IMG/VR virus record: IMGVR_UViG_3300048503_000180
Span: 15,123 to 79,122 of that record
Source of the DNA: a virus
DNA length: 64,000 nt
Strand: one strand, 5' to 3'
Shown here: in pieces, positions 20,725 through 42,499 of the stretch
How positions within the stretch are numbered: the stretch's first letter is position 1
Layout: each line of letters opens with the position of its first letter
Made by a program: the position numbers and the translations under genes
Notes under the pieces: generated by a model
What the model was told of the DNA's origin: nothing
Databases searched by the model: none
The model's input: the letters and a program-made list of their open reading frames with translations, nothing else

Positions 20725-20878
20725 GGGCTCTCCCTACTACATCGCTCGGTTTCCGTGTAAGAGGCTACAGTGGTGGGCCCCATTGGGTTTGCCCACATGA
20801 GCCTCCGGCAGCGGCTTGGTCGGGAATTCGATCACCGCGTGTGTAGAATGACCGATAAAAACGCTCCCCAACGCACAA

Positions 20879-23653: not shown

Positions 23654-23662
23654 AAGCGCTTC

Positions 23663-26716: not shown

Positions 26717-26720
26717 CGGC

Positions 26721-27947
26721 TTAAGGCCTCGCCTTTGCCGCATCGTACTCGACATGTAGCCGGACTGCGGACTTAACGTGTTTGTGGGCAGTTTCGACAA
26801 ACTGCTTGTCGCTCAGCAGTTCATACGTGATGCCCTTGAAAATAACTGAGCAACTCATTTTCTGAAAGTGATCTGACGGAGCGCCAAAAGCACGCGCCAG
26901 TTCATCGGAAAGTAGGTCCCGGAGGTCGGCATCAGCAGGGGGCCCACTGAAGTACTTCCGCCAGTCCGAGGGTACATTTTGGCGAACCAACGGAAACAAC
27001 ATCTTGGCCACCGTATCCTGATTCTTCTTCATCTCGTCGGCCAGCAGCTTCTCGACCTTTTTCTGATACCTCCCGATGAAGTGCCTCAGTAGTCGCACAG
27101 ACCGTTCGAAGCGCGGCTTCTGGGTTCGGAGGATGACGTTTCCGTACTTTGGCAGCCCAATCAGATACCGGTCGATTAGGCGCTGCTTCAGCTTCATCAC
27201 CACGTCCGAGGAGAGTTCGGTGTCGTCGCCGATCAGCCTGAAATTGCTCTGGAGCAGGTTCTGGGTCTTCGGGTCCCTTGATAGCCCCATGAGAAAAGAC
27301 GGAAGGGGGACCTTTTTTCGCGAGAGGGCAAGGCCCTTCAGCTCAAATTCGACGAACTCGAATTGGGCGTTGAAGACATGCACCTTCTGGGAAAGGTCGA
27401 AAGGCAGCGGAGGGTTCTCCTGGAGATCCTGCTTCAGCACCTGGACGTTGTCCGGTGTTGCCGGGGCAGAGGACACGTTGTGATGAACCTGTTGGCCTAT
27501 CGAGGCAGGCTCACCCTCTGGCAACGAAACCGAAACTGAGATTGTGGCCGGGACCTCGGGCGGAGACTCGACCAAGCGGGGGACTGGAGGAAATACTATC
27601 GTGTTGCTGTCGACGGTTAGCGCACACAACCGGATTCCACTCTGCCGTCTCAGGATGCCGGGTCTCTGCGCGGCGAGCGCCTGAAGGAGTTCGACCGCGG
27701 CGAGTTCTCCGAATCCCAATCGGCAGACTTCGGGGTCGAGGTCGACGGTCAGCGTGAGTACGATGTCCTGCCGCTGCTTCAGAGTGTCCTGAATGGCACT
27801 CGCAAGCCCAACGGTCATTCCGGGTCCCACAAATGTGATGGTGCCTCGTGCGCCTCGAATCATGCCTGTCAGGGACTGCTCGCTGGGGTAACCAAAGCTG
27901 ACAGAGAAGCCACCTCCTGTTGGCTTGTGAAGTTCTGGACCTAGCAC
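26721..27947 (-). CDS. Hypothetical protein of about 408 aa, N-terminus possibly a degenerate PLD-like fold
   Basis: GTG overlaps the SNF2 stop; stop lies 4 nt before the methylase ATG; no HKD motif (RLCALTVD at the equivalent place). Confidence 0.6.
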   Translation of the reverse strand: MLGPELHKPTGGGFSVSFGYPSEQSLTGMIRGARGTITFVGPGMTVGLASAIQDTLKQRQDIVLTLTVDLDPEVCRLGFGELAAVELLQALAAQRPGILRRQSGIRLCALTVDSNTIVFPPVPRLVESPPEVPATISVSVSLPEGEPASIGQQVHHNVSSAPATPDNVQVLKQDLQENPPLPFDLSQKVHVFNAQFEFVEFELKGLALSRKKVPLPSFLMGLSRDPKTQNLLQSNFRLIGDDTELSSDVVMKLKQRLIDRYLIGLPKYGNVILRTQKPRFERSVRLLRHFIGRYQKKVEKLLADEMKKNQDTVAKMLFPLVRQNVPSDWRKYFSGPPADADLRDLLSDELARAFGAPSDHFQKMSCSVIFKGITYELLSDKQFVETAHKHVKSAVRLHVEYDAAKARP

Positions 27948-30900: not shown

Positions 30901-31363
30901 CGATGAGAATTCTCTTGACCAGCCCACGAACCTTCAGTTCTTTGATGAGCAGGCCCGCCATGATCGTCTTGCCGGCGCCTGGATCGTCGGCGAGGAGGAA
31001 GCGGATTCGGGGGAGGCGCAAGAAGTAGTCGTAAACTGCCTCGAGCTGGTGCGGCAGTGGATCAACTCTGGCTATCGACAGGGAAAAGTACGGATCGTAT
31101 TCGTAGGCGATCCCCAGCCGCAGGGCTTCAATGCCCAGCTTAAACTTCGTCGCATCGCCGTCGAATGGCTGCTGTTCCGGCGATCCCTCCAGGTTGGCGA
31201 GTTGGGCCGGCGAGAGGATGGGCTGGTGCACCAGGCCAGTGTTCATGCCCTGGCCGACGAGTTTGATCGAGCCACCCATCGGGACCACCCGGATGACCTT
31301 CACGGGCTCCGGGAACATGGGCCCGCGCACGATGATGTTGGGTTTCAGGTCTTGTGGATTCAT
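27941..31363 (-). CDS. SNF2/RapA-like helicase with C-terminal DUF3883 (PD-(D/E)XK) nuclease
   Basis: LLADDPGAGKT, DEAH, ATEAAGEGINLQ, EQRMGRIHR; ENRGFDL..RFIEVKGR. Confidence 0.9.
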   Translation of the reverse strand: MNPQDLKPNIIVRGPMFPEPVKVIRVVPMGGSIKLVGQGMNTGLVHQPILSPAQLANLEGSPEQQPFDGDATKFKLGIEALRLGIAYEYDPYFSLSIARVDPLPHQLEAVYDYFLRLPRIRFLLADDPGAGKTIMAGLLIKELKVRGLVKRILIVTPANLSFQWQRELKDKFQEKFEVVRSDVLRANYGSNPWQEKNQVVTSISWVSRIEDAKESLLRSHWDLIIVDEAHKMSAYSSDKKTLAYELGEKLSEMTDHYLLMTATPHKGDPENFRLFLQLLDRDVYGDVASIDEAIRKHEAPFYLRRVKEALVHFPDPDTGEVRTLFTKRKVETIGFAIDDEEWELYDALTRYVEDQSIKAAADNSARGRAVGFTMAMLQRRFASSIRAARRSLERMRDKRQRILGNPAAYRQQQIDARVPDDFDDLPEEEQQEIMAALEDAVISVDPIALKEEIGQLDKLVAQALLLEKREVESKLRKLREVLTQQGIFEDPKMKLLIFTEHKDTLDYLVEKMRDEWHLSVTQIHGGMKIGDRDTPGSRIYAEREFRESCQIMAATEAAGEGINLQFCWFMINYDIPWNPVRLEQRMGRIHRYLQEKDCLILNFVATNTREGRVLHKLFERLQNIESDLDPQQTGKIFNVLGEVFASNQIERMLREMYAQNRSIESIESRIVAEVDLDRFRKITNSTLEGLAKRSLNLSAIVGKSAEAKERRLVPEVVEDFFLLAGPMLGVHPKEIAKGKHCYRVGRVPKNLWTTGDLLEPRFGKLGKEYKQIVFDKSYLSEDPTVEWVTPGHPLFEVVREDLLQSVGPDLERGSVFYDVARTQPARLDVYSAAIRDGLGNILHRRLFVVETSMDGALAVRQPTLFLDVVPAPADTEPGIDDGLPGSDVVEQSLIEKALEPFLEEIQQTRLKEIDTISTHMEISLNELIHRQNLRMAELMSGDHSREANPLLAANIKQVEDKIDELNNRLEKRRNEIERERFCTIADIQHYGRAWVLPHPDRAAPKFAAMVRDDEIERIAIQAVIAHEESRGWRVTSVEAENRGFDLISRRPHPEDPETAIEVRFIEVKGRAGIGEVALTTNEFKTAERLKKDFWLYVVFNCGSTPQVRIVQDPARLGWEPLVIVEHYHVAAKAILEASQC

Positions 31364-31372
31364 CGTGGGATT

Positions 31373-31618
31373 CTACCTGCTCCTTCGCCGTTGGGCTTTC
31401 TTGCCGCCGGAAACGGTGTCGGCAGGTCCACCGCCTCTCACCCACGCGTCCACCTCCGGCAGTTTGCACTTCCACAGACGACCGACGCGGTGGGCCGGCA
31501 GCCCCTTGTTCTCGATCCAGCGGTATACGGTGTCGGCGGCGACGCCCAGGTGCGCGGCGACGTCGTTCACGGAGTACCAACGCAGCTCTCCGGACGGAAT
31601 GCTGTCTGAAATGGACAT
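31373..31618 (-). CDS. Excisionase-like (HTH_17/MerR) DNA-binding protein heading the minus-strand operon
   Basis: WYSVNDVAAHLGVAADTVYRWI..LPAHRVGRLWK. Confidence 0.85.
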   Translation of the reverse strand: MSISDSIPSGELRWYSVNDVAAHLGVAADTVYRWIENKGLPAHRVGRLWKCKLPEVDAWVRGGGPADTVSGGKKAQRRRSR

Positions 31619-31795
31619 CGATCAACAATTGTGACAGAAAATCGGAAAGAATGGGTATCGTAGATGCTTGCTCCGGCCAAGCGTCCGCGCACGCAGAGGC
31701 CGCTGGCTGGCTGCCCCGCCCTTCGATTCTGCTACCAAACCCCATCAGATTCCCCAATACCGTTTTCAAAACACACGGCAGCCGTGAAGTCATGA

Positions 31796-31824
31796 TTGAC
31801 AGACCTCGCGAAGGCGATTACACT
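31796..31824 (+). promoter_or_regulatory. Sigma70-type promoter for higB, with a palindrome in the spacer
   Basis: TTGACA-N17-TACACT; spacer holds TCGC-gaag-GCGA; ATG only 9 nt after the -10, so the mRNA would be nearly leaderless. Confidence 0.75.
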
Positions 31825-31833
31825 GAGAAGTGG

Positions 31834-32130
31834 ATGGAGGTCCGCTTCCGAGATCCGTGTTACGACCAACTGGAGGTCGATCCGCACTACAGCGGCGGAT
31901 GGCCGCCCGCTGTCGTGAAGGCGTATCGGAACCGCCTCAACTACATCCGTCAGGCGCAGGACGAACGCGATCTCTATGCTTGGAAGTCGCTGCGGATGGA
32001 GAAGCTCCAAGGCAGTCGGCAGCACCAGCACTCTTTGCGCCTGAATGATCAGTGGAGGTTAGTAATCGAGTTCGAAGGGAACTACCCCCAAAAGACGATT
32101 GTGATTGTCAACATCGAGGACTACCACTAA
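31834..32130 (+). CDS. higB: HigB (RelE/ParE family) toxin
   Basis: MEVRF..LRMEKLQG.RQHQHSLRLNDQWRLVIEF..IEDYH; toxin-first order. Confidence 0.9.
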   Translation: MEVRFRDPCYDQLEVDPHYSGGWPPAVVKAYRNRLNYIRQAQDERDLYAWKSLRMEKLQGSRQHQHSLRLNDQWRLVIEFEGNYPQKTIVIVNIEDYH

Positions 32131-32131
32131 T

Positions 32132-33262
32132 ATGGCTCAGCGAATCAATCCGGAAGCATTCACCCCCGGCGAATACATCCGCGAAGAACTCGTCGAGCGC
32201 GGATGGACGCAAATGGACTTGGCGGAGATTTTAGGTCGGCCCCCGCAGGTTGTGAACGAAATCGTCGCCGGAAAGCGGTCCATCACGCCCGAGACTGCCA
32301 GAGGCTTGGGCGACGCCTTTGGTACGAGTGCGCAGCTATGGATGAACCTGGAGGCATCCTACCAGCTTTCAAGAGTGTCGGCCAAGGACGACACCGTGTC
32401 GAGGAGAGCGCTCCTGTACGGCAAGGCGCCCATCAAGGAAATGCAGCGGCGCGGCTGGATCGAGACGACCAGCAACGCGGAAATACTCGAAACGCAGGTC
32501 CTCGGCTTTTTTGAGATCTCAACCCTTGATCAGCCCATCCGGTTTGCTCACGCCGCGAGGAAGTCGACGGACGGCTCTCTCACGCAGGCGCAGCTAGCTT
32601 GGATGTTTCGAGCGAGGCAACTGGCCCGCGCGTTGAAGGTCGAGAGCAAGTTTTCTGCGGGTTCCCTCAACTCGGCTTTGACCCAGCTCGCGAAGCTCAA
32701 GCGCGACCCGGAGGAGGCCCGCCACATTCCCCGCGTACTGTCGGCAGCCGGCATTCGATTTCTTATCGTCGAGCCGCTGCCTCACACCAAGATTGACGGC
32801 GTTTGCTTTTGGCTTGACGCGGATTCGCCCGTCATAGCGTTGTCCGTGCGTTACGACCGTATCGATTGGTTTTGGCATACGCTGATGCACGAGATGGCCC
32901 ACGTGAAGAACAAGGACGGCATGGAGTCACCGACCTTGGACACCGAGCTGGTAGGGGTTGATGCTCAACCGTTTGAAGACAAGGTCGATTCCGAAAAGCA
33001 GGCCGATCTCTTCGCCGTCAACTTTCTTGTCAGCCAGGCGAAGCTTGATAGGTTCATCGCTCGGGTCCACCCCTTGTACTCGAAGCTAAAGATCAGCGCG
33101 TTTGCCAACAGCAACGAGGTGCACCCCGGAATTGTCGTGGGTCAGCTTCAGCACCGGAAAAAGATCGCTTACGCCCACAGCAGGGACCTGTTGGTAAAGG
33201 TAAGGAACATCATCGTCGCGTGCGCCCTGACGGATGGATGGGGGAGCACCGTGTCGGCATAG
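32132..33262 (+). CDS. higA: HigA antitoxin HTH fused to an IrrE/ImmA (M78) metallopeptidase
   Basis: TPGEYIREEL..WTQMDLAEILG..WMNLEASY; FWHTLMHEMAH (HExxH). Confidence 0.88.
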   Translation: MAQRINPEAFTPGEYIREELVERGWTQMDLAEILGRPPQVVNEIVAGKRSITPETARGLGDAFGTSAQLWMNLEASYQLSRVSAKDDTVSRRALLYGKAPIKEMQRRGWIETTSNAEILETQVLGFFEISTLDQPIRFAHAARKSTDGSLTQAQLAWMFRARQLARALKVESKFSAGSLNSALTQLAKLKRDPEEARHIPRVLSAAGIRFLIVEPLPHTKIDGVCFWLDADSPVIALSVRYDRIDWFWHTLMHEMAHVKNKDGMESPTLDTELVGVDAQPFEDKVDSEKQADLFAVNFLVSQAKLDRFIARVHPLYSKLKISAFANSNEVHPGIVVGQLQHRKKIAYAHSRDLLVKVRNIIVACALTDGWGSTVSA

Positions 33263-33288
33263 TCAGAAGTTGGAAAGGAGTACAGTCG

Positions 33289-33756
33289 ATGGCAACCTAT
33301 TCAGAGCAGTTGCAGCAAATCGCGAACAAGTACATGCGGGAGACAGGCATAACCACAGCCACAGCCCGCGAGATCGGGGCATGGGCCATAGAGAAGGGGC
33401 TGTGGGCACCCCAACCATCGGCATTGATCAGACAGTGCGCCGAAGAGTTGTCGCGTGCGATGCGCGAGGAATACGTAACCGACCCGCAGGGGCGACGGGT
33501 TCGTGCGAAGCATGTTGCGACCTTGGATCGCGCCGGCGAGCAAATGCCCCTGTGGGCAGACATCCGCACCGCCAGCCGGGAGCACATGGAAATCGCTTTC
33601 CAGCAGAGGCGCCAGCAGATCGTTGGGGACTGTCGGCAGCTCAAGGCCGACGTGGATAGCTACAACGAGAACTACAACTCCGGCGCGGCGATCCAGACGG
33701 TTTTCGACTTTACGGAAGATCTTGAGGAACTCGAGGCATTCAGCAGCGCTCGTTGA
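33289..33756 (+). CDS. Hypothetical protein, 155 aa
   Basis: AAGGAG RBS; co-oriented between higA and the Argonaute gene. Confidence 0.75.
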   Translation: MATYSEQLQQIANKYMRETGITTATAREIGAWAIEKGLWAPQPSALIRQCAEELSRAMREEYVTDPQGRRVRAKHVATLDRAGEQMPLWADIRTASREHMEIAFQQRRQQIVGDCRQLKADVDSYNENYNSGAAIQTVFDFTEDLEELEAFSSAR

Positions 33757-33822: not shown

Positions 33823-36126
33823 GTGAGCTTGATACTGAATTTTTCGCCGATCCAATTTGATGACCACGAGATCAGCGCTGGACGGTTGCCCTACGGAAAC
33901 GACGGGGAGCAGGTTTTAGAGCAGCTTCGAATCGACCACTACACCACCCATGTATTTCGGCGCGACGGACCGGACGGCATTCTCGCTGTCCCCGTCGTCT
34001 CCGATGCTCCGCTCCTCGGAAAGTCTGAGGCTCTGCGGATCAAAGAACATCTCCCTTTGGCCGCCGCCCTGATTCGCAACTCACTGCTCACCTACCTCAC
34101 CGGACTCGGCCGAACGGTATTGAGCTATGAGCCAATGAAGTTCATCGCTCGTGACGATCTTCTGAGATCGAGTGTTCCACCGGGCGCTCACCAGCCAGAC
34201 TGGCTGGCAGTTCGCCTGCTATATGAGCTTGCGATCCGTCCGGTCTACTTCTACAAGCAGAAGCCCGTCATCGCTGCAATTATGGACGTGCGCACGACGC
34301 GACTGGTCGAGCGGAAAGCATCTGAGTTGATCGCGGACGGCTTTCCTCTGGAGGGGCACTACGTTGGCAGACGAGTATCGGGCGACGATCCTCGAATTTC
34401 ACCACACACGAAGCTGTTGGGCCGAGTCACGTCGGTGGACGGATCGTTGCTGAAGTTGACCGATTCACCCGATCTGGTCGAATCGGTCCAGGCCAGTGAG
34501 GTCTGGCTGGAAAAGCGCGCATTCGATGATTGCATTGCGCACGAGTTCGGAAACTGCGCGGCAAAGGTACGTGAAGGTCTGGAACGCCAGCGGGCGGCGC
34601 TGAGGCAGGGCAAAGCGCGTCTCGAAAAGATCCGGACCATTGTTGAGTTCTTGAGAGGGAAGCAGCACGAAATGGCTCCGGGCGTATCTTTCGCTTTCGG
34701 GCCGCTTCTTGCGAGTTCTGACCGCGCGTTTCCCCGCATCGAAGATGCGCCCAAGCCCGTGTACGTCTTCGACCAGACTGGCTCCAAAACGAACACATGG
34801 CATGACAAGGGCCTGACGGAATACGGGCCGTATAGCGCTCAGGTGTTTACGCCGAACCAGCCCCGAATCGGTATCGTGTGCCAGCAATCCATGAAGGGCC
34901 AGGTCGAGCAGTTTGTGCGCAAGTTCGTGAACGGCGTCGTCTTGCCCGCGCCGAAAGGAGATCCTCGGCGGAAGAAGACCAATTACTTCGAGAAGGGGCT
35001 GGTCCGCAAATTTGCGCTGAAGAATGTCCAGTACGACTTCTTCCTCGCCGCGAACGGCTCTGTTGAAGCCTACAAGAAGGCTTGCCAGCAGGCTGTTGAG
35101 GCCCACGGCAATGGACAGAAACTCGATCTTGCGCTGGTTCAGATAGAGGAGCCATTTCACGACCTCGCTCCGCGAGCCAACCCGTACTTCGCGTGCAAGG
35201 TCTCGTTTCATACCCATCAGATTCCTGTTCAGGAGTTCGAGATCGAGACCACGCGACGGCCCGACAGCCAATTGATCTACGTCCTGAACAACATGGCTCT
35301 CGCCACCTACGCCAAGCTCAACGGCATTCCGTGGCTTCTGAAGGCAAATCCGACCATCGCTCACGAGTTGGTCATCGGGCTGGGGAGCGCGGACATTGGA
35401 GAGAGTCGCCTCGGCGAACGCGAGCGGTTCGTGGGCATCACCACTGTTTTTAGCGGCGACGGCAATTACTACCTTTCCAATTTGTCTAAAGCGGTCTCGA
35501 TGGATGACTACCGCACGGCTCTTCTCGAATCGCTGCGGGCCACGATTCTGAAGGTCCGTAGCGAGATGAACTGGCAGTGCAGGGATTCCGTTCGGCTGGT
35601 CTTCCATGCCACGTTCAAGAAGTTCAGCGGGGACGAAGTGCAGTCGATCAAGGATCTCGTATCTGGACTCGGCGACTACGACGTCGAGTACGCTTTCCTT
35701 CAGATGAACGAGGAGCACCCGTACATGCTGTTCGACAAGAGTCAGAACGGCGTCCCTGACTTCGAGTCAAACGGGACCAAGGGGAGCTACGCACCAGCCC
35801 GCGGGCGATATCTCGAACTCGGTAATCGCGAAGTGCTGCTCTCGCTGACCGGCCCCAGGGAAGTCAAACGTCCAGAGGACGGCACGCCACGTCCGTTACT
35901 TCTTAGCCTCCATCGCGATTCTACCTTCACGGACATGACCTACCTGACCCGACAGGTCTTTGCCTTCGCCAGCCATTCGTGGCGCACATTCCTCCCGTCG
36001 TCAGTCCCGGTGACAATCCAGTATTCGAATCTGATCGCAGGAGCGCTTGGTCACCTCGCCCTGATGGAACGTTGGAATCCCGAAGTCATGCTCGGCCGAA
36101 TTGGCAAGACCAGGTGGTTCTTGTGA
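33823..36126 (+). CDS. ago: Long-B prokaryotic Argonaute (RsAgo-like), catalytically inactive PIWI, about 767 aa
   Basis: MID residues NPYFACK..PVQ and NNMALATYAKLNGIPW; PIWI HELVIGLG..RFVGITTVFSGDG.Y, VRLVFHA, LLLSLHRDSTF, SWR..PVTIQYS, ends TRWFL as in RsAgo; DEDX aspartates absent. Confidence 0.93.
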   Translation: MSLILNFSPIQFDDHEISAGRLPYGNDGEQVLEQLRIDHYTTHVFRRDGPDGILAVPVVSDAPLLGKSEALRIKEHLPLAAALIRNSLLTYLTGLGRTVLSYEPMKFIARDDLLRSSVPPGAHQPDWLAVRLLYELAIRPVYFYKQKPVIAAIMDVRTTRLVERKASELIADGFPLEGHYVGRRVSGDDPRISPHTKLLGRVTSVDGSLLKLTDSPDLVESVQASEVWLEKRAFDDCIAHEFGNCAAKVREGLERQRAALRQGKARLEKIRTIVEFLRGKQHEMAPGVSFAFGPLLASSDRAFPRIEDAPKPVYVFDQTGSKTNTWHDKGLTEYGPYSAQVFTPNQPRIGIVCQQSMKGQVEQFVRKFVNGVVLPAPKGDPRRKKTNYFEKGLVRKFALKNVQYDFFLAANGSVEAYKKACQQAVEAHGNGQKLDLALVQIEEPFHDLAPRANPYFACKVSFHTHQIPVQEFEIETTRRPDSQLIYVLNNMALATYAKLNGIPWLLKANPTIAHELVIGLGSADIGESRLGERERFVGITTVFSGDGNYYLSNLSKAVSMDDYRTALLESLRATILKVRSEMNWQCRDSVRLVFHATFKKFSGDEVQSIKDLVSGLGDYDVEYAFLQMNEEHPYMLFDKSQNGVPDFESNGTKGSYAPARGRYLELGNREVLLSLTGPREVKRPEDGTPRPLLLSLHRDSTFTDMTYLTRQVFAFASHSWRTFLPSSVPVTIQYSNLIAGALGHLALMERWNPEVMLGRIGKTRWFL

Positions 36127-37145
36127 CGGCGACTTCGGAGTTCCTGGTGGCCGACGCCCGTGCTGCGCTCAGAAGGCGGCTGGCCGATCCGGATCGGACG
36201 GAATTGAGCCGTGCATTCGCCGCCTGGCTCCTGCGCGAGCCGCAACTCAAAGCAGAATTTGCGTCACTCGTGGCGGCTGCCGCCGATAGAAAGGGCGCAC
36301 AACAGGATTTCCAGACAGTAGCGACTCTTGGATACGGGGCGGAAGCTGGCGTGCTTGATGGCCCGCAAGTCGACGCGCTCAGACAGGGGCTTCGTCGTCA
36401 GGCCGGGCGAGAACCGTTCGTTGACGGAGTGCCAATGGCATTTTGCCAGGACGCGGTCGGAATCCTCGGCGTCGCGCTGGGCGTGAAAGCTGCCGCAGAC
36501 GGACAGATCACTTCCGAGGTTGTACGTTGGACCACGCGCTTCCTGAAGGCAAGCTACGACATGGAGCGTGCCGAAGATTGGCACCGTTGCCTGTTCGCGG
36601 CTGCGGATCAGCAGTTGGGCAGCCCTCAGAATCTCTCGGTCCCACCGTCGGCGCCCGTGGCCGACTTGCGCACCGCGCTCGTGGCCAGAGGCGTCCTGAA
36701 CGATGAAGCGCTGGCTGCGGAGGACTCAGACCAGACGCTGCGATTGGCTCTGACGGAACCGCAGGCCGACCTGCCGATTGACCGGGCCGTGCTGCGCCTC
36801 GCTGCAATGGAATTCGTCATACGTAACGCGGCACCCATTACGGGAGGCAAGTCCAGCGTCCGGTCGGCGGGGATTGGCGGTTCACTGTCCAAGAGGGATG
36901 CCAGTGTTCACGAAGTCGTCGGCAAAGATCTCTTCAACAGCCATACGAATGCGGAGATCATGAAGGACGTAAACGTGAAGAAGCGCCTTCGGGCCGAATG
37001 CCAGCTTACGTCGAACGACGCGATCAAGCGCTGTCTTGACCGCATCCGAGAGACGAAAGGATATCCGCTCTCGCGCGAGGTCACAAAAAAACGGGCAGCT
37101 CGGAATCAGACAACGGTCAAGAACGGTCCACGGCGTTCATCGTAG
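36123..37145 (+). CDS. Argonaute-coupled protein of unknown function (340 aa): helical N-domain plus a basic C-terminal domain
   Basis: GTGA start/stop overlap with ago; no recognisable nuclease, SIR2 or TIR motif. Confidence 0.8.
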   Translation: MTATSEFLVADARAALRRRLADPDRTELSRAFAAWLLREPQLKAEFASLVAAAADRKGAQQDFQTVATLGYGAEAGVLDGPQVDALRQGLRRQAGREPFVDGVPMAFCQDAVGILGVALGVKAAADGQITSEVVRWTTRFLKASYDMERAEDWHRCLFAAADQQLGSPQNLSVPPSAPVADLRTALVARGVLNDEALAAEDSDQTLRLALTEPQADLPIDRAVLRLAAMEFVIRNAAPITGGKSSVRSAGIGGSLSKRDASVHEVVGKDLFNSHTNAEIMKDVNVKKRLRAECQLTSNDAIKRCLDRIRETKGYPLSREVTKKRAARNQTTVKNGPRRSS

Positions 37146-37302
37146 GTCATTGTTTTCAATCGCTTACTCGGCCCGAAACGGTCAACTTTGCCTTGCCCGA
37201 TCTGGCCGTCAACAACTAAAAACCCTTTTCAGTCAACAACATTATTCACGGGCAATGTTCTGACCGTCGCAGCCGCCCTGAAGATGGAACCGGACAAAGA
37301 AT

Positions 37303-37527
37303 ATGCCGGTTTCAAAACTACTATCGGTGGCGCAGGTCGGCGCGAAACTCCAGTGCGCACGGTCAACAGTTCGAAAGCTGATCGCGGACGGCGAACTCCG
37401 TGCTTCGCGCATCAGCAGCAGAACGATAAGGATCGCGGCTGCTGACCTTCAGGCTTACCTGGATCGCCGTGCCAATACCTCGGTGCCCACCGGGGCTTCC
37501 GCAAGTACCAACGGGGGCACACGATGA
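37303..37527 (+). CDS. xis: Excisionase-family HTH protein
   Basis: LLSVAQVGAKLQCARSTVRKLIADGEL.A.RI..RTIRI; first gene of the replication/integration module. Confidence 0.8.
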   Translation: MPVSKLLSVAQVGAKLQCARSTVRKLIADGELRASRISSRTIRIAAADLQAYLDRRANTSVPTGASASTNGGTR

Positions 37528-37838
37528 CCAGCGAGCACCTCACGGCAATCCTGGCCGAACGTGTCATGGGCTGGACCATCGGTCCCGATCGCTTCATGAT
37601 GGGCAATCGCGGTTGGATGCCGCGTTGGCGATTCCAGCCCGTGGAAAAGCTCGAAGATGCCTTTCGGCTTCTGGAAGGGGCTGCGCCACAGGAGTACAGC
37701 ATCGGAGGCGACGACAAAGGAAACGTCCACGTCCAAGTTCGAATCGCAGGCACTCCGGGCGAAGCGCGCGGAACGTCCAGGCCACTGGTCATCACCTACG
37801 CGATTGCGCGCGCCGTCGGCATTGATGTTGAGGACTGA
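37524..37838 (+). CDS. Phage ABA-sandwich-like small protein
   Basis: LAERVMGW..FQP...LEDAFRLLE..PLVITYAIARA pattern; ATGA overlap. Confidence 0.55.
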   Translation: MTSEHLTAILAERVMGWTIGPDRFMMGNRGWMPRWRFQPVEKLEDAFRLLEGAAPQEYSIGGDDKGNVHVQVRIAGTPGEARGTSRPLVITYAIARAVGIDVED

Positions 37839-37859: not shown

Positions 37860-39571
37860 ATGCCGTCTGATGCAAGTCTCTTTCTGGAAGCGTCGTTCGG
37901 CGGCAAGCCGGATGAGCTGTACCTTCTGCTCTGGACGCTTCCGGAGAAGCGATCACACTGGTTCCAAAACGTCGAAAGCGCGATTCAGTTTGCCGAATCG
38001 CTGCGCGAGCGGGATCTCTACGTCGGCGTAGGACTCTCCAGCCAGGATCATGGCTCTGCGCGTCGCTGCCCTTCAAACGAGGTGGCCGGCATCGTGGGCT
38101 TGTGGGCCGACCTCGACCTGAAGTCAGACGCGCACCCAAAGGCGGCGCTACCAGCGACTGTCGAGGATGCGATGACGATCCTGCCGGATGAGTTTCCGCC
38201 CACATTCCTCGTCAAAACCGGAAACGGCGCGCATGCGTGGTGGCTCTTTCGAGAACCGCTGATCTTCGAGTCAGACGAGGACCGCCGCAATGCCGGCGCG
38301 CTTGCGCTCCGCTGGCAGTCGCTGCTCCGTCTGAATGCCGCTGCCCACGGCTGGGCGTTTGATCGTCTCGCCGACCTCGCCCGAGTTCTGCGCGTGCCGG
38401 GAACGAAGAACTGCAAGGACCCGGCGAATCCAAAGCCGGTCGCAATCCAGAGCCAGACCGACCGCCGCTACAATCCGAGCGACTTGGCGGAATTCCTCGA
38501 GGCCCACGGCGTGCCCAACCCGAAGAGCAGGAGCGCGTCACGCAGGGATGGAAGGAGAAGGTCGCCGACAAGCCACTGTCCGTTAACCCGAATGCGACCG
38601 TGCCCGAGGATCTTCTCAATCGACACTTGGCCGCCGACCCGCGCTTCAAGAAGACTTGGCTGCGCCAGCGCGAGGACCTCAAAGACCAGTCCCAGTCCGG
38701 TTACGACCTGGCCCTCGCCAATTTTGGATCGAAAGCCGGTCTGTCCGAACAGCAGGTCATAGACCTGATGATCCACCACCGGAGAATCCATGGCAAGCCG
38801 CAACGAACGCGACTCGACTACTTCCAGCGGACCATTTCAAAAGCATCCAAGCGAAACGAAAACCCCGCCACCGCCAAATCCTTTGAGGTTCCCGCTGAGG
38901 AGCCTGGCCACCCATTGCCACAAACGAAGCCAGACTCTCCAACCGCGCGGGCACTCATGTGTGAGCAGATCTCAAACGCTATCGGCGTTCGCGTGCTCAG
39001 AATCGTCAAGATCGACGGTCAGGAACCGACCTACCGGCTGGAACTGGAAGCCACCAAAATCGGGTTCCCCAGCGTTGACAAACTCGTCGGGCAGCAGAGT
39101 TTCCGGATGAAGATCGCGAGTGCGGTCGATCATCTGGTCCCAAGAATTCCGCCGAAGGTCTGGGATCGCGTGGCTCAGATGATCCTGAGTGCCTTGACAG
39201 TCGAGGATGGCGGCGACGAAGCAAATCTCGTGGGCGCCGCGAAGCTGTACGTAGAACGCTATCTCGCCGAAACGCCGTTCATTGACGCGGAAGGAGATCA
39301 TCCCTATCAGACCCGCTCCAAGCCGACAGTCTACGAGGGACAGGTCGCGATTTGTTCGCACGACCTGCAACAACACATCAACAAGGCGTGGGGTGAGAAT
39401 CGCGCGATCAAAGAGGTGACTGCGATGCTTTCGGCCCTCGGCGCATCGAGCACCAGGCTCAAGCGGACGCGGTTGCGGGACCAAAGCCGGTGGCTGCTGC
39501 CCTCAAGTGAGTTCGCTCCCGGCGCCCACGTCGGAGCCAGCGAGGAGACGTGCGATGCCAGACCATCCTGA
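37860..39571 (+). pseudogene. RepB-type (AEP) DNA primase with one frameshift at about 38520
   Basis: LWADLD, VKTGNGAHAWW, DLARVLRVPGT; C-terminal DQSQSGYDLALA; the frames join as ..VPN|EEQERVTQGW.. Confidence 0.75.
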
Positions 39572-41222
39572 CATTGAAGAAGCTCTCGGTGCAATTGGCG
39601 AGCGGGACCACTCCATTACGGCCGAGTACCGCATCTTCGGACCGCCCGGCACCGGGAAGACCACCAACTTAACCCGGCAGATCCGCCGCGCCGTCAAGCG
39701 GTTCGGTAAGGACTCCGTGCTGGTGACGAGCTTCTCGCGCGCGGCAGCCGCCGAACTCGCTGGGCAAGATCTCCCAGTCAGTCCCGACCGCGTTGGAACA
39801 CTGCACTCGCACTGCTGGCACGCACTGGGCCGTCCCGAAATCGCTGAAGTTCACGTGGAGGAATGGAACCGGGAGAACCCCCATCTGCGGATCACTCCCG
39901 CAAAGAAGGACCGAAAGCTGGATGGGGAGGAATCCGACGAGGATCTCGTCGATGTCGTGCGAGGCGGCGACTACTGGCTGGGTGAGTTGAATCGGTCTCG
40001 GGGAATGATGCGGTCCATGGAACTTTGGCCGGCAGCGCTTCGAGAATTCGCCGCCAAGTGGGGCCGCTACAAGGCTTCGCGGCGGGTAATGGACTTCTGT
40101 GACCTGATCGAGACCGCAGTGCGGGAGATCCGCATCGCGCCGAAGAGGCCGGACGTTGTCTTCGCCGACGAAGCGCAGGACCTCAACCCGATGCAGTTGG
40201 GCTTGGTGCGCAGGTGGGGTGAGAACGCGCAGTACTTCATCATCGCGGCCGACGACGACCAGACCATCTACTCCTGGTGCGGCGCGACGCCGGATGCGGT
40301 GTTGGACCCCGAAATCCCCGAGGACCACAAAATCATCCTCAAGGAGAGTCACCGCGTGCCGCGCCACGTTCACGCCCGCGCGAACCGGTTGATCCATCAA
40401 GTCACGCGCAGGCAGGAGAAGGTCTACGATCCGCGGCCCGAAGACGGGATGTGCGTGGACATCTCGCGCGGCGGCTACAAATCGCCCGAGTACTGGATTC
40501 TCAAGACGATCATGCAGCACCTCGAGAACGGACAGAAGGTGATGCTGCTGGCGTCGTGCTCCTATATGCTGCATCCGGTGATCGCGGTACTGCGGCAATG
40601 GGGAATCCCTTTTCACAACCCGTACAGGAAATCCGCCGGCTTCTGGAATCCACTGCGACGTGGACGAAAAGGGTCTTCGACGAATCGGATTCTGTCCCTT
40701 CTTGGCGATCACCCGTGGACGCACAGCGACCTCAAGCTGTGGGCCGAGTGGCTTAACCCAAAGGGCAATCTGCGGACGGGAGCCAGAGAGCTAATCGACG
40801 CATCCGACGATTCCCTCCCGGTGACCATGGAGCGGCTCAGCGAATTGTTTGAGGCGGCCGCGCTCGAATCTCTTCTGGCAGCGTCCGGCGACCCCAAGCG
40901 ATTGCTCCAGTGGTGGGCCCGGCGCGTCGCGCCGGCATTCCATGCGCGTGTGCAGTTTCCGGTCGCAACGGCAATGGCCGGCGGACCAGACGCGCTGGAG
41001 GAATCGCCTCGCGTAATCGTCGGAACCATCCACTCGGTAAAGGGCGGCGAGGCGGATGTCGTGTTTCTCTTTCCGGATGTTAGCCCAGCCGGTGACGCCG
41101 CTTACCAGAAGCACGGACCGCAAAGAGACTCGGTGATCCGGCTTTTCTACGTCGGCATGACGCGCGCCCGGCACACGCTGTACATCTGCCAGAGGGAATC
41201 TCCTCTGGCGGTCACGATTTGA
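39555..41222 (+). CDS. UvrD/Rep-like SF1 helicase
   Basis: GPPGTGKT, GTLHS, DEAQD, ADDDQTIY, GTIHSVKGGE, YVGMTRAR. Confidence 0.9.
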   Translation: MPDHPDIEEALGAIGERDHSITAEYRIFGPPGTGKTTNLTRQIRRAVKRFGKDSVLVTSFSRAAAAELAGQDLPVSPDRVGTLHSHCWHALGRPEIAEVHVEEWNRENPHLRITPAKKDRKLDGEESDEDLVDVVRGGDYWLGELNRSRGMMRSMELWPAALREFAAKWGRYKASRRVMDFCDLIETAVREIRIAPKRPDVVFADEAQDLNPMQLGLVRRWGENAQYFIIAADDDQTIYSWCGATPDAVLDPEIPEDHKIILKESHRVPRHVHARANRLIHQVTRRQEKVYDPRPEDGMCVDISRGGYKSPEYWILKTIMQHLENGQKVMLLASCSYMLHPVIAVLRQWGIPFHNPYRKSAGFWNPLRRGRKGSSTNRILSLLGDHPWTHSDLKLWAEWLNPKGNLRTGARELIDASDDSLPVTMERLSELFEAAALESLLAASGDPKRLLQWWARRVAPAFHARVQFPVATAMAGGPDALEESPRVIVGTIHSVKGGEADVVFLFPDVSPAGDAAYQKHGPQRDSVIRLFYVGMTRARHTLYICQRESPLAVTI

Positions 41223-41302
41223 CTCTAAGTAATTGACACGATGAGACTTGCTTGATGCTTCGAGACGACGGTAACCTTCAGGCGCTAACTGGAGGTTTGA
41301 AG

Positions 41303-42499
41303 TTGAAAATACGGATTCAGCATCCCGGAGTTCACGAGCGAACGGATCGCGGAGGCTCGTACTGGTATTTCCGCTACTGGGAAGACGTTCTGCAAGCGGA
41401 CGGTACGACGAAGGCCATCCGGAAATTCCACACGGTCGGCCCGAGCAAGGGCGACACTAAGCTCTCGAAGAAGCAGGCGGAAGTTGCGCGCGACAAATTC
41501 GTGGCGACGATCAACAGGCCCACCATTCAGGAGAAGGTCGTTGACGGATTGGCTCTGTTCAGCAAGATGGTCGAAAAATACAGGGCGGCGCACGTTGAAG
41601 CGGAAGCCGCTGGGCGATTCCTGCTGGCGAAGCCGACGCGCGACAAGTACATCATCCACCTCGAGCAGCGCATCGTCCCACAGTGGGGCGACCGGCGTTT
41701 GTGCGAGATCAAACCCGATGAGGTCCAGCAGTGGCTGTTCAAGACCTGCGACTCCTGGCACATGATGAACGACCTGCGCGGCATCATGTCCGGCATCTAC
41801 ACCAAGGCCGAGGAGTGGGGCTACTGGCCCGAGGGACGGCGCAACCCGATCTCCCGCGTCAAGATTGGGGAGAAGTGGAGCGTGAGGCCCGAACGGATTC
41901 TGACGGAAGAGGAGACCGTAAAGGTGCTGGCGCGGCTGAGCGATCCCAACCTGCTCGTGCTGGAAACCGCAATCGCCACCGGCGCACGGATCTCCGAAAT
42001 CCTGGGGCTCAAGTGGTGCCACGTGGATCTCCAGACTGGTATCCTACGCATCGCGCAGCGCTATTGGCGCGGCGACATAGACGATCCGAAGTCGAAGACC
42101 AGCAAACGACCGCTCACGTTGGGATACCTGGGCGACCGCTACCGCGCGAAGGCTGCGGCGGATAACGCGAAAGCGGACAACTGGGTCTTCGTCCGGACGG
42201 ACGGCAGCGGCCTCCCGCTGTGGGATTCCGGCGTACGGCAAGCTCTAAAGCGGGCGGCGGTCGCCGAGGGCTGCGATTTCCCAGGTCTGGGTCCGCACTC
42301 CTTCCGACGCGCCAACATCACGTGGCGGCAGGAGGTGGGTGGGTCGAGCATTGAGGCGTCGAAGATCGCCGGCCACAGCACGGTCCGGATGACCGAGGAA
42401 TACACGAAGATCCAACTGACCCGCCAGGAAGAACTCACGCGACTGATCCAGGAGCGCCTCGCCAGCGTTGGCGAGAAGCAGACAGCGGTCGTGCAGTAG
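41303..42499 (+). CDS. int: Tyrosine integrase
   Basis: GGAGG RBS before TTG; catalytic R (TGARISE), K (PKS), HSFRR, GHS, Y (TEEY). Confidence 0.93.
   Translation: MKIRIQHPGVHERTDRGGSYWYFRYWEDVLQADGTTKAIRKFHTVGPSKGDTKLSKKQAEVARDKFVATINRPTIQEKVVDGLALFSKMVEKYRAAHVEAEAAGRFLLAKPTRDKYIIHLEQRIVPQWGDRRLCEIKPDEVQQWLFKTCDSWHMMNDLRGIMSGIYTKAEEWGYWPEGRRNPISRVKIGEKWSVRPERILTEEETVKVLARLSDPNLLVLETAIATGARISEILGLKWCHVDLQTGILRIAQRYWRGDIDDPKSKTSKRPLTLGYLGDRYRAKAAADNAKADNWVFVRTDGSGLPLWDSGVRQALKRAAVAEGCDFPGLGPHSFRRANITWRQEVGGSSIEASKIAGHSTVRMTEEYTKIQLTRQEELTRLIQERLASVGEKQTAVVQ

What the first reader, a model, noticed from the sequence alone, without database searches (positions are those of the whole stretch)
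33823..37145. Inactive RsAgo-like long-B Argonaute coupled to a partner with no recognisable effector domain
Seen: an intact 767-aa Argonaute with MID pocket residues but no catalytic tetrad (IGLG and FHA where IGID and HRDG are expected), and a 340-aa ORF starting in a GTGA overlap with its stop. Established: long-B pAgos cannot slice and rely on adjacent effectors (nuclease, SIR2 or membrane proteins); RsAgo has a downstream nuclease gene. Here the partner has about 235 aa of helical sequence, a Gly/Ser linker, and an about 80-aa basic module (..DAIKRCLDRIRETKGYPLSREVTKKR) with no PD-(D/E)XK, HKD, HNH, SIR2 or TIR motif. Inference: a new effector class, perhaps the usual helical sensor domain with the nuclease swapped for a DNA-binding domain. 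It sits directly before xis-primase-UvrD-int, so it could link guide-target recognition to prophage excision or replication rather than to cell death.
Basis: partly seen in the sequence, partly recalled or inferred. Interest (0 to 1): 0.85.

Follow-up and report, generated by a model that had tools for sequence, protein, structure and literature searches.

The report
Argonaute partner with nuclease swapped out
A catalytically dead bacterial Argonaute is paired with a helper protein that keeps the Argonaute-docking half of a known suicide nuclease but carries a small, basic, probably DNA-binding tail instead of the nuclease, and the pair always sits just upstream of the excision and integration genes of a mobile element, so it may signal to the element rather than kill the cell.

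Summary
Window 33823-36126 encodes an intact long-B Argonaute. It is closest to EcAgo and RsAgo, its MID pocket is intact, and all four catalytic positions are lost. The 340-aa partner (36123-37145) overlaps its stop codon.

Partner residues 1-236 are the N-terminal domain of bAgaN, the nuclease of the BPAN system, with the docking-loop residues invariant. The PD-(D/E)XK nuclease is replaced by a disordered linker and a roughly 80-aa basic helical tail. The tail is under purifying selection. It resembles LuxR/GerE-type helix-turn-helix domains only weakly.

This is not a private truncation. More than 100 Acidobacteriota homologs share the architecture.

In every locus where the downstream DNA is visible, the pair is followed by a conserved array of ACGG(G/T)CAA repeats and an HTH_17 (xis-like) gene. 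An integrase comes next, sometimes after primase and helicase genes.

The same tail also ends at least 22 unrelated N-terminal regions, including an AbiJ_NTD4 protein at the same genomic position. Other nuclease-less tails on the bAgaN scaffold go with other element backbones.

Best reading, about 40% confidence: the tail binds the repeat array, so target recognition by the Argonaute feeds into the element's excision and replication control. DNA binding and Argonaute binding are both untested. The case is a new variant of BPAN.

The parts
33823..36126 (+). Long-B (class II) prokaryotic Argonaute, 767 aa, catalytically inactive
   Evidence: PADLOC pAgo_II 9.7e-258. EcAgo 3e-144 and RsAgo 2e-96. 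Tetrad positions are G521/D561/T597/N736 and the MID pocket is Y455/K459/Q470/K498.
36123..36830 (+). Partner residues 1-236: bAgaN-type N-terminal helical (Argonaute-docking) domain
   Evidence: PADLOC Aga_Helical-REase 1.4e-34, profile positions 4-218 of 378. The profile hits EcbAgaN residues 73-133 in PDB 23wq. R92, D101 and P104 correspond to EcbAgaN R77, D86 and P89 and are invariant or nearly so. AF2 pLDDT is about 90.
36831..36881 (+). Partner residues 237-253: Gly/Ser-rich disordered linker
   Evidence: pLDDT is below 50 for residues 239-253. dN/dS is 0.2-1.3, which is relaxed. EcbAgaN has a flexible linker at the same place.
36882..37118 (+). Partner residues 254-332: conserved basic helical 'type-A tail', HTH-like, in place of the PD-(D/E)XK nuclease
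   Evidence: Alignments A1/A2 show 65% mean column identity. dN/dS is 0.04-0.26 in close pairs. Net charge is +6 to +13. The model has helices only. There are weak HTH fold matches. The same tail follows other N-domains.
37091..37366 (.). Array of about 10 ACGG(G/T)CA(A/G)-like repeats, mostly direct and two inverted. It runs from the last codons of the partner into the start of the HTH_17 gene and includes a conserved TTGCCC-N18-TAAAAA promoter-like element at 37195-37224.
   Evidence: Four of the five exact ACGGKCAA matches in the 64 kb window lie at 37113-37366. Repeat families are listed. The cluster is present in every type-A locus and absent from the REase-type loci. The promoter-like element is my reading of the and 61 sequences; the consensus scan did not flag it.
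37303..37527 (+). HTH_17 (Xis/AlpA-like) small DNA-binding protein
   Evidence: PF12728 at 9.9e-11. It is the next gene after the partner in all type-A loci seen.
37524..37838 (+). Phage_ABA_S domain protein
   Evidence: PF18066 at 1.6e-05. Syntenic in the long-backbone loci.
37860..39571 (+). Primase-like replication gene, split into two overlapping ORFs here (37860-38762 and 38600-39571)
   Evidence: No Pfam hit. It is a single ORF of about 575 aa in L012, L013 and L020. The equivalent gene in P0026's locus carries DUF3854.
39507..41222 (+). UvrD-like helicase
   Evidence: PF00580 at 3.6e-18, plus UvrD_C.
41252..42499 (+). Tyrosine integrase
   Evidence: PF00589 at 7.5e-17.
31354..33756 (+). 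Upstream same-strand genes: HigB-like toxin, an HTH_3 plus Peptidase_M78 (ImmA/IrrE-like) fusion, and a 178-aa unknown
   Evidence: Pfam hits. The trio is also present upstream of the pAgo in L012, L013 and L068. A divergent MerR gene takes its place in L006, L015, L020, L021, L025 and L122.

Best explanation
What is shown. This is a BPAN-derived two-gene module: a long-B Argonaute plus a bAgaN-like partner. It is carried by an integrative element or prophage of Acidobacteriota.

The Argonaute keeps its guide-binding MID pocket and has lost all catalytic residues. [quoted passage not shown] Behind a flexible linker, the PD-(D/E)XK nuclease is replaced by a conserved, strongly basic helical tail of about 80 aa.

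The tail coding sequence and the roughly 250 bp that follow it are inherited as one unit. That stretch holds an array of ACGG(G/T)CAA repeats overlapping a promoter-like element upstream of the xis-like HTH_17 gene. The unit forms the left edge of the element's excision, replication and integration module.

What is inferred. The tail is a LuxR-like tetrahelical HTH that binds this repeat array. When the guide-loaded Argonaute finds invading DNA, it captures and clusters the partner through the N-terminal domain, as EcAgo does with EcbAgaN. This changes occupancy of the operator and so switches the xis-primase-helicase-integrase operon. The output would be a regulatory response of the mobile element (excision, replication or escape), not nuclease-driven cell death.

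The direction of the switch, de-repression by sequestration or activation by clustering, is unknown.
For: N-terminal domain and docking:
- PADLOC Aga_Helical-REase 1.4e-34 covers only profile positions 4-218 of 378.
- No REase remnant exists anywhere in the 85.6 kb record.
- The partner profile hits EcbAgaN residues 73-133, which include the docking loop Q81-R90.
- EcbAgaN R77, D86 and P89 correspond to R92, D101 and P104, which are invariant or nearly so in 28 homologs.
- EcAgo interface residues Y318, F323, N554 and D559 are kept in the pAgo as Y337, F342, N583 and D588.

The tail is a real, selected domain:
- 191 homologs were found. The 330-345 aa architecture is kept down to 50% identity.
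- Tail dN/dS is 0.04-0.26, against 0.15-0.28 for the N-domain and 0.2-1.3 for the linker.
- Net charge is +6 to +13.

HTH likeness:
- About eleven LuxR/NarL/GerE-type chains, homeodomains and sigma region 4 appear among the 50 best VIA matches (Z 4-5).
- GerE, MarR and IS3 HTH clusters appear in the Atlas search (TM 0.43-0.46).
- The helix order fits a four-helix LuxR-type domain in the hhalign alignment.
- Sister tails on the same scaffold include a Cro/C1-type HTH (P0118, HTH_31 at 6.5e-4).

Link to the element:
- Every type-A locus with visible downstream DNA has the repeats and HTH_17 next. These are the window and L002-L005, L012-L021, L025, L031, L048, L063, L087, L089, L094, L114, L115 and L122.
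- The backbone that follows is either ABA_S-primase-UvrD-Int or a short Int backbone beside tRNA-Glu.
- REase-type sister loci lack all of this.
- Other nuclease-less tails go with other backbones. P0110 is followed by HTH_3-ABA_S-primase. P0114 is followed by a PriCT_1 primase and HTH_17. P0125 is followed by a large serine recombinase.
- All nuclease-less tails form one clade (98/96 support) inside the REase types, with tails interleaved within it.
- The same tail plus repeat region follows an AbiJ_NTD4 N-domain in L063 and an unrelated N-domain in L186.
- At least 27 further proteins carry the tail behind at least 21 unrelated N-terminal regions.
Against: - No direct evidence that the tail binds DNA. 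Foldseek found nothing in PDB, AFDB or BFVD. The best VIA Z is 5.1, which is within the noise for small helical domains.
- hhalign against GerE gave P 0.016 with the narrow alignment and 9e-4 with the wide one, but 1 of 30 column shuffles scored as low.
- Backbones of the same family without pAgo or partner (L030, L062, L043, L134, L136, L139) keep the proximal repeats. The repeats therefore do not need the partner, and HTH_17 or the integrase may be what binds them.
- Covariation of tail type with backbone could be plain co-divergence of whole elements.
- Three of the seven EcAgo residues that contact EcbAgaN differ in the window's pAgo (R321 to Q340, S524 to N553, R552 to E581). The three EcAgo-EcAgo dimer-contact residues (D400, R552, H726) all differ too, as G429, E581 and K762; R552 counts in both sets. 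Assembly may therefore differ from the 8:8 EcBPAN complex.
- pAgo is fragmented in several loci (L005, L016, L018, L024, L025, L094, L114, L182). This may mean decay, although some of it may be assembly error.
Confidence: 0.4

Rival explanations
1. Non-enzymatic abortive-infection or silencing effector. The tail is a portable output domain that stops growth or silences the invader by binding nucleic acid in bulk once the Argonaute clusters it. Its position next to xis-int only reflects a cargo hotspot of the element.
For: The tail sits where a nuclease sits in two unrelated defence architectures: bAgaN NTD plus REase, and AbiJ_NTD4 in a family known for a C-terminal HEPN domain (HEPN part from my knowledge). 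The same NTD scaffold elsewhere carries typical toxic effectors: SEFIR/TIR, CHAT, CAP12-TIR, PNP_UDP_1 and TM. The tail has high positive charge. Satellites and prophages are known to keep defence genes at fixed hotspots (my knowledge).
Against: The tail is always inherited with the repeat region. Tail type changes with backbone type. About a dozen polar residues are invariant across very different proteins (S256, T275, N276, E278, D306, R307, R309, Y314, S317, R324), which suggests one specific target rather than bulk binding.
Confidence: 0.25
2. Decaying or neutral fusion. The nuclease was lost, the bAgaN remnant became fused in frame to a backbone gene at the cargo-backbone junction, and the pair no longer works as an Argonaute system.
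For: pAgo is fragmented, and partner genes are 5'-truncated, in several loci (L005, L016, L024, L094, L114, L182, L184/L185, P0271). Recombination joints fall inside or near the linker (L063, L186). The element is rare: the tail was found in none of about 800 other Acidobacteriota genomes sampled, only in the genome used as the search centre.
Against: Both partner domains are under purifying selection. The docking residues are invariant. pAgo is intact and 61-95% identical across twelve loci, with 76% mean column identity. The architecture persists to about 50% identity.
Confidence: 0.15
3. Adaptor for a trans-acting enzyme. The tail is a protein-binding module that brings a backbone protein (HTH_17, integrase, primase or UvrD-like helicase) to the Argonaute-marked DNA.
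For: There is strict synteny with backbone genes, and tail type covaries with backbone type. The tail has no enzymatic motif.
Against: The short backbones have no primase or helicase and use a different integrase type, yet carry the same tail. L002 lacks the window-type HTH_17 gene. No single backbone protein is therefore shared by all type-A loci.
Confidence: 0.1
4. Minimal HEPN-like RNase. The conserved R258-x4-H263 at the start of the tail would be an Rx4-6H active site, activated by dimerisation.
For: The R-D-x-x-V-H motif is conserved in most members. An AbiJ_NTD4 protein carries the tail where I would expect a HEPN domain (HEPN expectation from my knowledge).
Against: R258 is K in P0346, and H263 is R in P0086 and P0098. 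The domain has only about 75 residues. No HEPN chain is among the 50 best fold matches.
Confidence: 0.03

Closest known systems
EcBPAN (E. coli long-B pAgo EcAgo plus nuclease EcbAgaN; PMC10620215, PMC13535254, PDB 23wq)
   Same: The gene order is the same, with overlapping genes. The pAgo aligns end to end with EcAgo (3e-144), with the MID pocket kept and the tetrad lost. The partner has the same N-terminal helical domain, the same docking-loop residues, and the same two-domain plan with a flexible linker.
   Different: The C-terminal PD-(D/E)XK nuclease (D-EVK motif) is absent, replaced by a basic helical tail of about 80 aa. Several Ago-Ago and Ago-partner contact residues differ. The pair is embedded at a fixed place in an integrative element.
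RsAgo (Rhodobacter sphaeroides long-B pAgo)
   Same: It is an inactive long-B pAgo with the YKQK MID pocket. The sequence match is 2e-96 over residues 65-767.
   Different: It is not an equivalog: NCBIfam ProtArgonAgoRhdb scores 396 bits against a cut-off of 700. EcAgo is the closer relative.
REase-type bAgaN of Acidobacteriota metagenomes (P0121 and P0129; loci L009-L011 and L022)
   Same: It is the sister clade of the nuclease-less group in the N-domain tree. Its pAgo is 61-63% identical to the window's.
   Different: It carries the DpnII-MboI REase domain (PF18742, 2e-47). It is not followed by repeats, HTH_17 or an integrase.
LuxR/GerE/NarL-type tetrahelical HTH domains
   Same: There are four helices in the same order. 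The motif LSxR(D/E)xxV...TN(A/K)EI matches at the start. These domains appear repeatedly among the weak fold matches.
   Different: There is no Pfam match even at E 10. Profile-profile support is borderline. The tail has an extra C-terminal helix and a basic end.
Master repressors of satellites and islands that sense a helper phage (SaPI Stl type; from my knowledge, not tested here)
   Same: The logic would be the same: a DNA-binding domain next to the xis/rep/int control region, joined to a variable sensor domain.
   Different: There is no sequence or fold relation. Here one of the sensor domains would work through an Argonaute, and this remains purely an inference.

Membership tests
Long-B (class II) prokaryotic Argonaute | Full-length N-L1-PAZ*-L2-MID-PIWI protein | tested here: met
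   PADLOC pAgo_II covers model positions 2-724 of 724. Residues 3-767 align with EcAgo residues 3-731.
Long-B (class II) prokaryotic Argonaute | Loss of the DEDX catalytic tetrad | tested here: met
   G521, D561, T597 and N736 stand at the positions of EcAgo G492, E532, Q568 and D700.
Long-B (class II) prokaryotic Argonaute | MID pocket for the guide 5' phosphate (Y/X-K-Q-K) and C-terminal carboxylate | tested here: met
   Y455, K459, Q470 and K498 are present, and the protein ends in WFL like EcAgo.
Long-B (class II) prokaryotic Argonaute | RNA guide and DNA target | not testable with these tools
   This needs guide sequencing or in vitro loading.
[quoted passage not shown] | N-terminal helical domain homologous to bAgaN NTD, encoded directly downstream of the pAgo | tested here: met
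   PDLC02411 at 1.4e-34 and PDLC02404 at 2.6e-28. GTGA overlap with the pAgo stop. The profile hits EcbAgaN in PDB 23wq.
[quoted passage not shown] | Docking loop that inserts between MID and PIWI (EcbAgaN R77, D86, P89) | tested here: met
   R92 and D101 are invariant and P104 nearly invariant in 28 homologs. All three are invariant in the two wider alignments that include other tail types.
[quoted passage not shown] | C-terminal PD-(D/E)XK nuclease with D-EVK motif | tested here: not met
   The PADLOC match stops at profile position 218 of 378. There is no REase match anywhere in the record. The tail is all-helical with no beta strand. The sister protein P0121 has PF18742.
[quoted passage not shown] | Physical, target-dependent complex with the pAgo | not testable with these tools
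LuxR/GerE-type HTH | Match to the family profile | tested here: not met
   No Pfam family at E up to 10 for 28 tails. No PDB sequence hit at E up to 10.
LuxR/GerE-type HTH | Tetrahelical HTH fold | tested here: inconclusive
   VIA Z is 4.0-4.6 to NarL, TraR, DegU, GerE, RcsB and others. Atlas GerE clusters score TM 0.43-0.44. hhalign P is 9e-4, but 1 of 30 shuffles scored as low.
HEPN RNase | Invariant Rx4-6H motif in a four-helix domain of 100 residues or more | tested here: not met
   R258 and H263 are not invariant. The domain is about 75 aa. No HEPN chain is among the fold matches.
Integrative element or prophage with a tyrosine recombinase | Integrase plus Xis-like gene at one end, next to an attachment site | tested here: inconclusive
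   Integrase PF00589 and HTH_17 are present. The record is classed as a provirus. tRNA-Glu abuts the integrase in L002 and L018. However, there is no tRNA in the window, and no flanking direct repeat was found in L002.

The most novel reading that the evidence does not exclude
The Argonaute acts as a general sensor of invading DNA for a mobile element. By capturing a regulator whose C-terminal HTH sits on the operator of the xis-replication-integrase operon, guide-directed target recognition would switch the element's excision and replication on or off. That would be nucleic-acid-guided control of gene expression by a prokaryotic Argonaute. The shared tail with at least 22 alternative N-terminal 'sensor' domains would then define a whole family of island regulators that listen to different signals.
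Probability: 0.3. Interest if true: 0.9.

Novelty: new variant of a known kind. Interest (0 to 1): 0.7.

Why it matters
All long-B Argonaute systems characterised so far (BPAN, BPAS, BPAM) convert target recognition into cell death through a nuclease, a SIR2 or a membrane protein (PMC10620215, PMC13535254). Here the same Argonaute and the same docking domain are joined to a small non-enzymatic module that travels with the control region of a mobile element.

If the module binds that region, it would be a first case of a prokaryotic Argonaute giving a regulatory rather than a lethal output. It would also be a new way for a prophage or island to sense infection.

Even without that, two results stand. 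The bAgaN N-terminal domain is a general adaptor found with REase, TIR, CHAT, PNP, membrane and several small basic tails. The type-A tail is a portable module on many unrelated proteins. Both widen the catalogue of Argonaute-linked outputs and give clear constructs for testing.

Tried and rejected
- Whole-partner fold searches in PDB and AFDB gave only generic helical-repeat matches.
- Tail-only Foldseek searches in PDB, AFDB clusters and BFVD gave nothing with E below 1.
- The feature search in the protein Atlas scored at most 0.84, which is not informative.
- No Pfam, NCBIfam or PDB sequence match was found for the tail.
- The idea that the tail is a remnant created by insertion of the element into a nuclease gene is rejected. 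There is no REase fragment in the record, and the architecture is conserved in many homologs.
- The idea that the tail exists as a stand-alone backbone gene is rejected for the cases examined. P0272 (L184/L185), P0271 and similar short proteins are 5'-truncated partner genes.
- The idea that the other N-termini are off-frame translations of pAgo or partner DNA is rejected. They have no similarity to any frame of my loci.
- The HEPN reading is rejected because the motif is not invariant.
- hhalign of the tail against HTH_17, the second HTH_17 type, ABA_S and the other tail types shows no relation (P 0.03-0.67).
- The search for att direct repeats around the short element in L002 found none within 8 kb.
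- An exact-pattern scan of viral contigs for the operator core gave no hit. The looser metagenome scan gave mostly chance hits, and about 20 of the 120 loci were real.
- The tail was not found in any of about 800 other sampled Acidobacteriota genomes; the only match was in the genome used as the search centre.
- The sigma-70 consensus scan found no promoter and no terminator between the partner and HTH_17.

Full report
**1. Observation**

ORF listing and translation confirm a 767-aa ORF at 33823-36126 and a 340-aa ORF at 36123-37145 on the + strand. The partner's GTG start overlaps the Argonaute's TGA stop as GTGA. A second in-frame GTG at 36114 would give the MVLV N-terminus seen in some homologs. 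Either start implies translational coupling.

The Argonaute matches PADLOC pAgo_II over the entire model (9.7e-258). Pfam Piwi scores 2.5e-11. In the PDB it matches EcAgo of the E. coli BPAN system (23wq, 3e-144, end to end) and RsAgo (2e-96). It falls below the NCBIfam equivalog cut-off for the Rhodobacter protein (396 against 700 bits). 'Long-B, EcAgo/RsAgo-like' is therefore correct, but it is not an RsAgo ortholog.

I mapped the residues named in the EcBPAN structure paper (PMC13535254) onto the HMMER alignment and checked the numbering.
- The tetrad positions are G521, D561, T597 and N736. EcAgo has G492, E532, Q568 and D700.
- The MID pocket is Y455, K459, Q470 and K498. EcAgo has Y426, K430, Q441 and K469.
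- The protein ends in WFL like EcAgo.

The Argonaute can very probably hold a 5'-phosphorylated guide and cannot slice.

**2. The partner's N-terminal half**

Residues 9-239 match three PADLOC 'Aga_Helical-REase' models, the best at 1.4e-34, but only over profile positions 4-218 of 378. Searching the whole 85.6 kb record with that model finds the same piece and nothing of the REase part.

A profile of 28 homologs hits EcbAgaN in PDB 23wq over residues 73-133. That stretch contains the 'protruding loop' Q81-R90, which inserts between MID and PIWI of target-bound EcAgo. Replacing the loop abolishes the 8:8 complex.

EcbAgaN R77, D86 and P89 align with R92, D101 and P104 of the partner. R77A and D86A impair EcbAgaN function. 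R92 and D101 are invariant and P104 nearly invariant in the family, and all three are invariant in the wider alignments that include other tail types.

On the Argonaute side, four contact residues are kept: Y337, F342, N583 and D588. Three differ: Q340, N553 and E581. The EcAgo-EcAgo dimer contacts D400, R552 and H726 correspond to G429, E581 and K762.

Docking is therefore likely, but the higher-order assembly may differ.

**3. The C-terminal tail**

AF2 with the family alignment (pLDDT 84.5) gives three parts: a helical N-domain, a disordered stretch at residues 239-253, and a helical module at 254-332. This two-domain, flexible-linker plan is the same as in EcbAgaN.

The module has no beta strand, so a PD-(D/E)XK core is excluded. 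It is strongly basic, with net charge +6 to +13. It is at least as conserved as the N-domain. It is under purifying selection: dN/dS is 0.04-0.26 in close pairs, against 0.15-0.28 for the N-domain and 0.2-1.3 for the linker.

Sequence searches give nothing in Pfam at E up to 10 or in PDB sequences. Foldseek finds nothing in PDB, AFDB or BFVD.

The exhaustive VIA search gives only Z of 5.1 or less. Even so, the list is rich in HTH domains: homeodomains, about eleven LuxR/NarL/GerE-type regulators, and sigma-28 region 4. The Atlas shape search again returns IS3 HTH_21/23, GerE, MarR and Trans_reg_C clusters at TM 0.40-0.47.

hhalign against 30 GerE domains taken from two Acidobacteriota genomes gave P 0.016 with the narrow alignment. 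With a wider tail alignment it gave P 9e-4, against P 0.03-0.67 for eight other small domains. However, 1 of 30 column-shuffled controls scored as low.

The alignment places four helices in LuxR order: LSxRDxxVH, then TNAEIM, then VKKRLR, then DAxKxCLDRIR.

My reading is a probable tetrahelical HTH, with membership of the LuxR family unproven. A HEPN reading of the R258-x4-H263 motif is unlikely, because neither residue is invariant and no HEPN fold appears in the matches.

**4. Not a private truncation, and how it arose**

The first search found 191 homologs. The 330-345 aa architecture persists to about 50% identity, all in Acidobacteriota MAGs or soil, peat and groundwater metagenomes.

A profile of the N-domain finds 270 clusters at 50% identity among 1.84 billion representatives. 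Of 76 representatives with a complete N-domain and a tail of 50 aa or more, 47 carry the DpnII-MboI REase. Others carry SEFIR/TIR, CHAT, CAP12/Pycsar-TIR, PNP_UDP_1, DUF2272 or a membrane segment.

A further group carries small tails without enzymatic signatures:
- the type-A tail of this window;
- a roughly 180-aa tail (P0104 group);
- P0110-type, P0114-type and P0127-type tails;
- a Cro/C1-type HTH (P0118; HTH_31 at 6.5e-4);
- P0126.

In a maximum-likelihood tree of N-domains, all these nuclease-less types fall in one clade (98/96 support). That clade is nested within REase types and is sister to P0121 and P0129. Tail types are interleaved inside the clade. This fits one loss of the nuclease followed by repeated tail exchange.

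The Argonautes of REase-type and tail-type loci are still 61-72% identical.

**5. Genomic setting**

In the window the pair is followed by HTH_17, Phage_ABA_S, a primase-like gene, a UvrD-like helicase and a tyrosine integrase, all on the same strand. The record is classed as a provirus.

Every locus with a type-A partner and visible downstream DNA shows the same thing. These are the window and L002-L005, L012-L021, L025, L031, L048, L087, L089, L094, L114, L115 and L122. HTH_17 comes next. It is followed either by ABA_S-primase-(UvrD)-integrase or directly by a different integrase type that abuts tRNA-Glu. Loci with the REase-type partner do not show this.

What lies upstream varies. It may be BREX genes, DISARM-like genes, a divergent MerR gene, or, as here, HigB, an HTH_3-M78 fusion and a 178-aa ORF.

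The other nuclease-less tails go with other backbones:
- P0110 is followed by HTH_3-ABA_S-primase.
- P0114 is followed by a PriCT_1/DUF3987 primase and HTH_17.
- P0125 is followed by three small genes and a large serine recombinase.

**6. The repeat array**

About ten copies of ACGG(G/T)CA(A/G), two of them inverted, lie between the last codons of the partner and the first codons of HTH_17. Four of the five exact ACGGKCAA matches in the whole 64 kb window lie within 254 nt there.

The cluster has 3-7 copies in every type-A locus. It is missing from REase-type loci and from the P0110-type locus, which has other repeats.

A conserved TTGCCC-N18-TAAAAA element lies inside the array. Its -35-like hexamer forms most of an inverted repeat copy. 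This is my reading; it falls below the scanner's threshold.

The partner's last ten or so codons (NQTTVKNGPRRSS) are simply the translation of the first two repeats. In 333-aa homologs the stop codon comes before them.

There is an important caveat. Backbones of the same family that lack pAgo and partner (L030, L062, L043, L134, L136, L139) keep the proximal repeats, with homology starting near window position 37175. The repeats therefore belong to the backbone's control region. HTH_17 or the integrase are alternative binders.

**7. The tail is a portable module**

In L063 an ORF of 330 aa has an AbiJ_NTD4 domain (PF18863, 5.7e-11, above the cut-off) followed by the type-A tail. It sits in the same place, upstream of the repeats, HTH_17 and integrase, with no Argonaute detected in the 2 kb of upstream sequence the locus holds.

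A search with that protein found at least 27 further proteins of 199-548 aa with a full-length tail at the extreme C-terminus (E 1e-30 to 1e-39). They lack the bAgaN N-domain. Their N-terminal regions fall into at least 21 unrelated groups. These have no informative Pfam match; the only hit is a single chance-level one. They have no similarity to any reading frame of my pAgo or partner loci, so they are not frameshift artefacts.

The one locus I could still fetch (P0321, L186) has the tail gene followed by a degenerate copy of the repeat region, with the rest of the backbone lost.

Short 'stand-alone' tails are 5'-truncated partner genes.

Across all tails the invariant residues are S256, T275, N276, E278, D306, R307, R309, Y314, P315, L316, S317 and R324. 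This fits one common target.

**8. Interpretation**

Shown:
- The Argonaute is an inactive long-B type with an intact guide pocket.
- The partner has the bAgaN docking domain with conserved docking residues.
- The nuclease has been replaced by a selected, basic, helical module.
- The pair occupies a strict, repeated position at the control region of an integrative element.
- The tail and the repeat region are inherited together.
- The tail is portable.

Inferred:
- The tail binds the repeats.
- Capture of the partner by target-bound Argonaute changes expression of the xis-replication-integrase operon.

I put the full mechanistic chain at about 0.4.

The main rival (0.25) is a non-enzymatic effector, with the location explained by a cargo hotspot. 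Decay or neutral fusion (0.15) is countered by the selection data, but it is kept alive by the many broken Argonaute genes. A protein-adaptor role (0.1) and a HEPN-like RNase (0.03) are less likely.

**9. Comparison and novelty**

The system works like BPAN up to the recruitment step. It fails the defining nuclease feature of bAgaN, so it should not be filed as BPAN.

The held literature on long-B systems names nuclease, SIR2, membrane and VirE-N partners, and mentions HTH proteins only as neighbours. Searches for Argonaute with integrase and HTH, and for bAgaN or BPAN, gave nothing closer.

I confirm their domains and their presence in the closest relatives (L012, L013, L068). More distant type-A loci have a divergent MerR gene instead, so those genes are not a fixed part of the module.

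I rate this a new variant of a known kind. There is a realistic chance, about 0.3, that it represents a new kind of output: Argonaute-driven regulation of a mobile element.

Noticed in passing
window 37860-39571: The primase-like gene is split into two overlapping ORFs (37860-38762 and 38600-39571). L012, L013 and L020 have one ORF of about 575 aa. This is a frameshift, either a pseudogene or an assembly error.
   Followed up: partly
window 16129-31363 (minus strand): A large defence-like gene block lies in a lower-GC stretch (0.56-0.60 against 0.62-0.65 in the flanks). It holds a 1531-aa SF1 helicase with a Top1 zinc ribbon, a DUF499 protein, a DUF1156 methyltransferase, a 430-aa unknown, and an SNF2 helicase with a NOV_C domain.
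   Followed up: no
window 31354-33756: A HigB-like toxin, a fused HTH_3 plus Peptidase_M78 (ImmA/IrrE-like) protein and a 178-aa unknown lie directly upstream of the Argonaute on the same strand. They are also present in L012, L013 and L068. A divergent MerR gene takes their place in more distant loci.
   Followed up: partly
proteins P0166, P0162, P0178, P0206, P0208, P0220 (one search hits): The bAgaN N-terminal helical domain is also fused to SEFIR/TIR, CHAT, CAP12/Pycsar-TIR, PNP_UDP_1 phosphorylase, DUF2272 and membrane segments. These are candidate further long-B Argonaute effectors. I did not find them named in the papers I read, and their gene neighbourhoods were not checked.
   Followed up: partly
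L063:2133-3125: A 330-aa protein has an AbiJ_NTD4 domain followed by the same type-A tail, at the same place upstream of repeats, HTH_17 and integrase, with no Argonaute detected upstream. Close copies exist on about ten contigs.
   Followed up: yes
window 37106-37145: The last ten or so codons of the partner are the translation of the first two ACGG(G/T)CAA repeats. Most homologs stop before them (333 aa). The low-confidence C-terminal end is therefore probably regulatory DNA read through, not part of the domain.
   Followed up: yes
L005, L016, L018, L024, L025, L094, L114, L182: The Argonaute gene is fragmented, truncated or interrupted in many related loci, once next to a DDE transposase, while the partner ORF often stays intact. 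Some of this may be long-read assembly error.
   Followed up: partly
L002:10631-10705 and L018:12841-12915: A tRNA-Glu(CTC) gene lies directly after the integrase of the short backbone, making it a likely integration site. No matching direct repeat was found within 8 kb upstream.
   Followed up: partly
window 46015-47586; L184/L185: A ParB_N plus N6/N4 DNA methylase fusion lies about 3.5 kb after the integrase. In L184 and L185 a similar gene lies with terminase and portal genes upstream of a truncated partner and the same backbone, which suggests the backbone belongs to a temperate phage.
   Followed up: no
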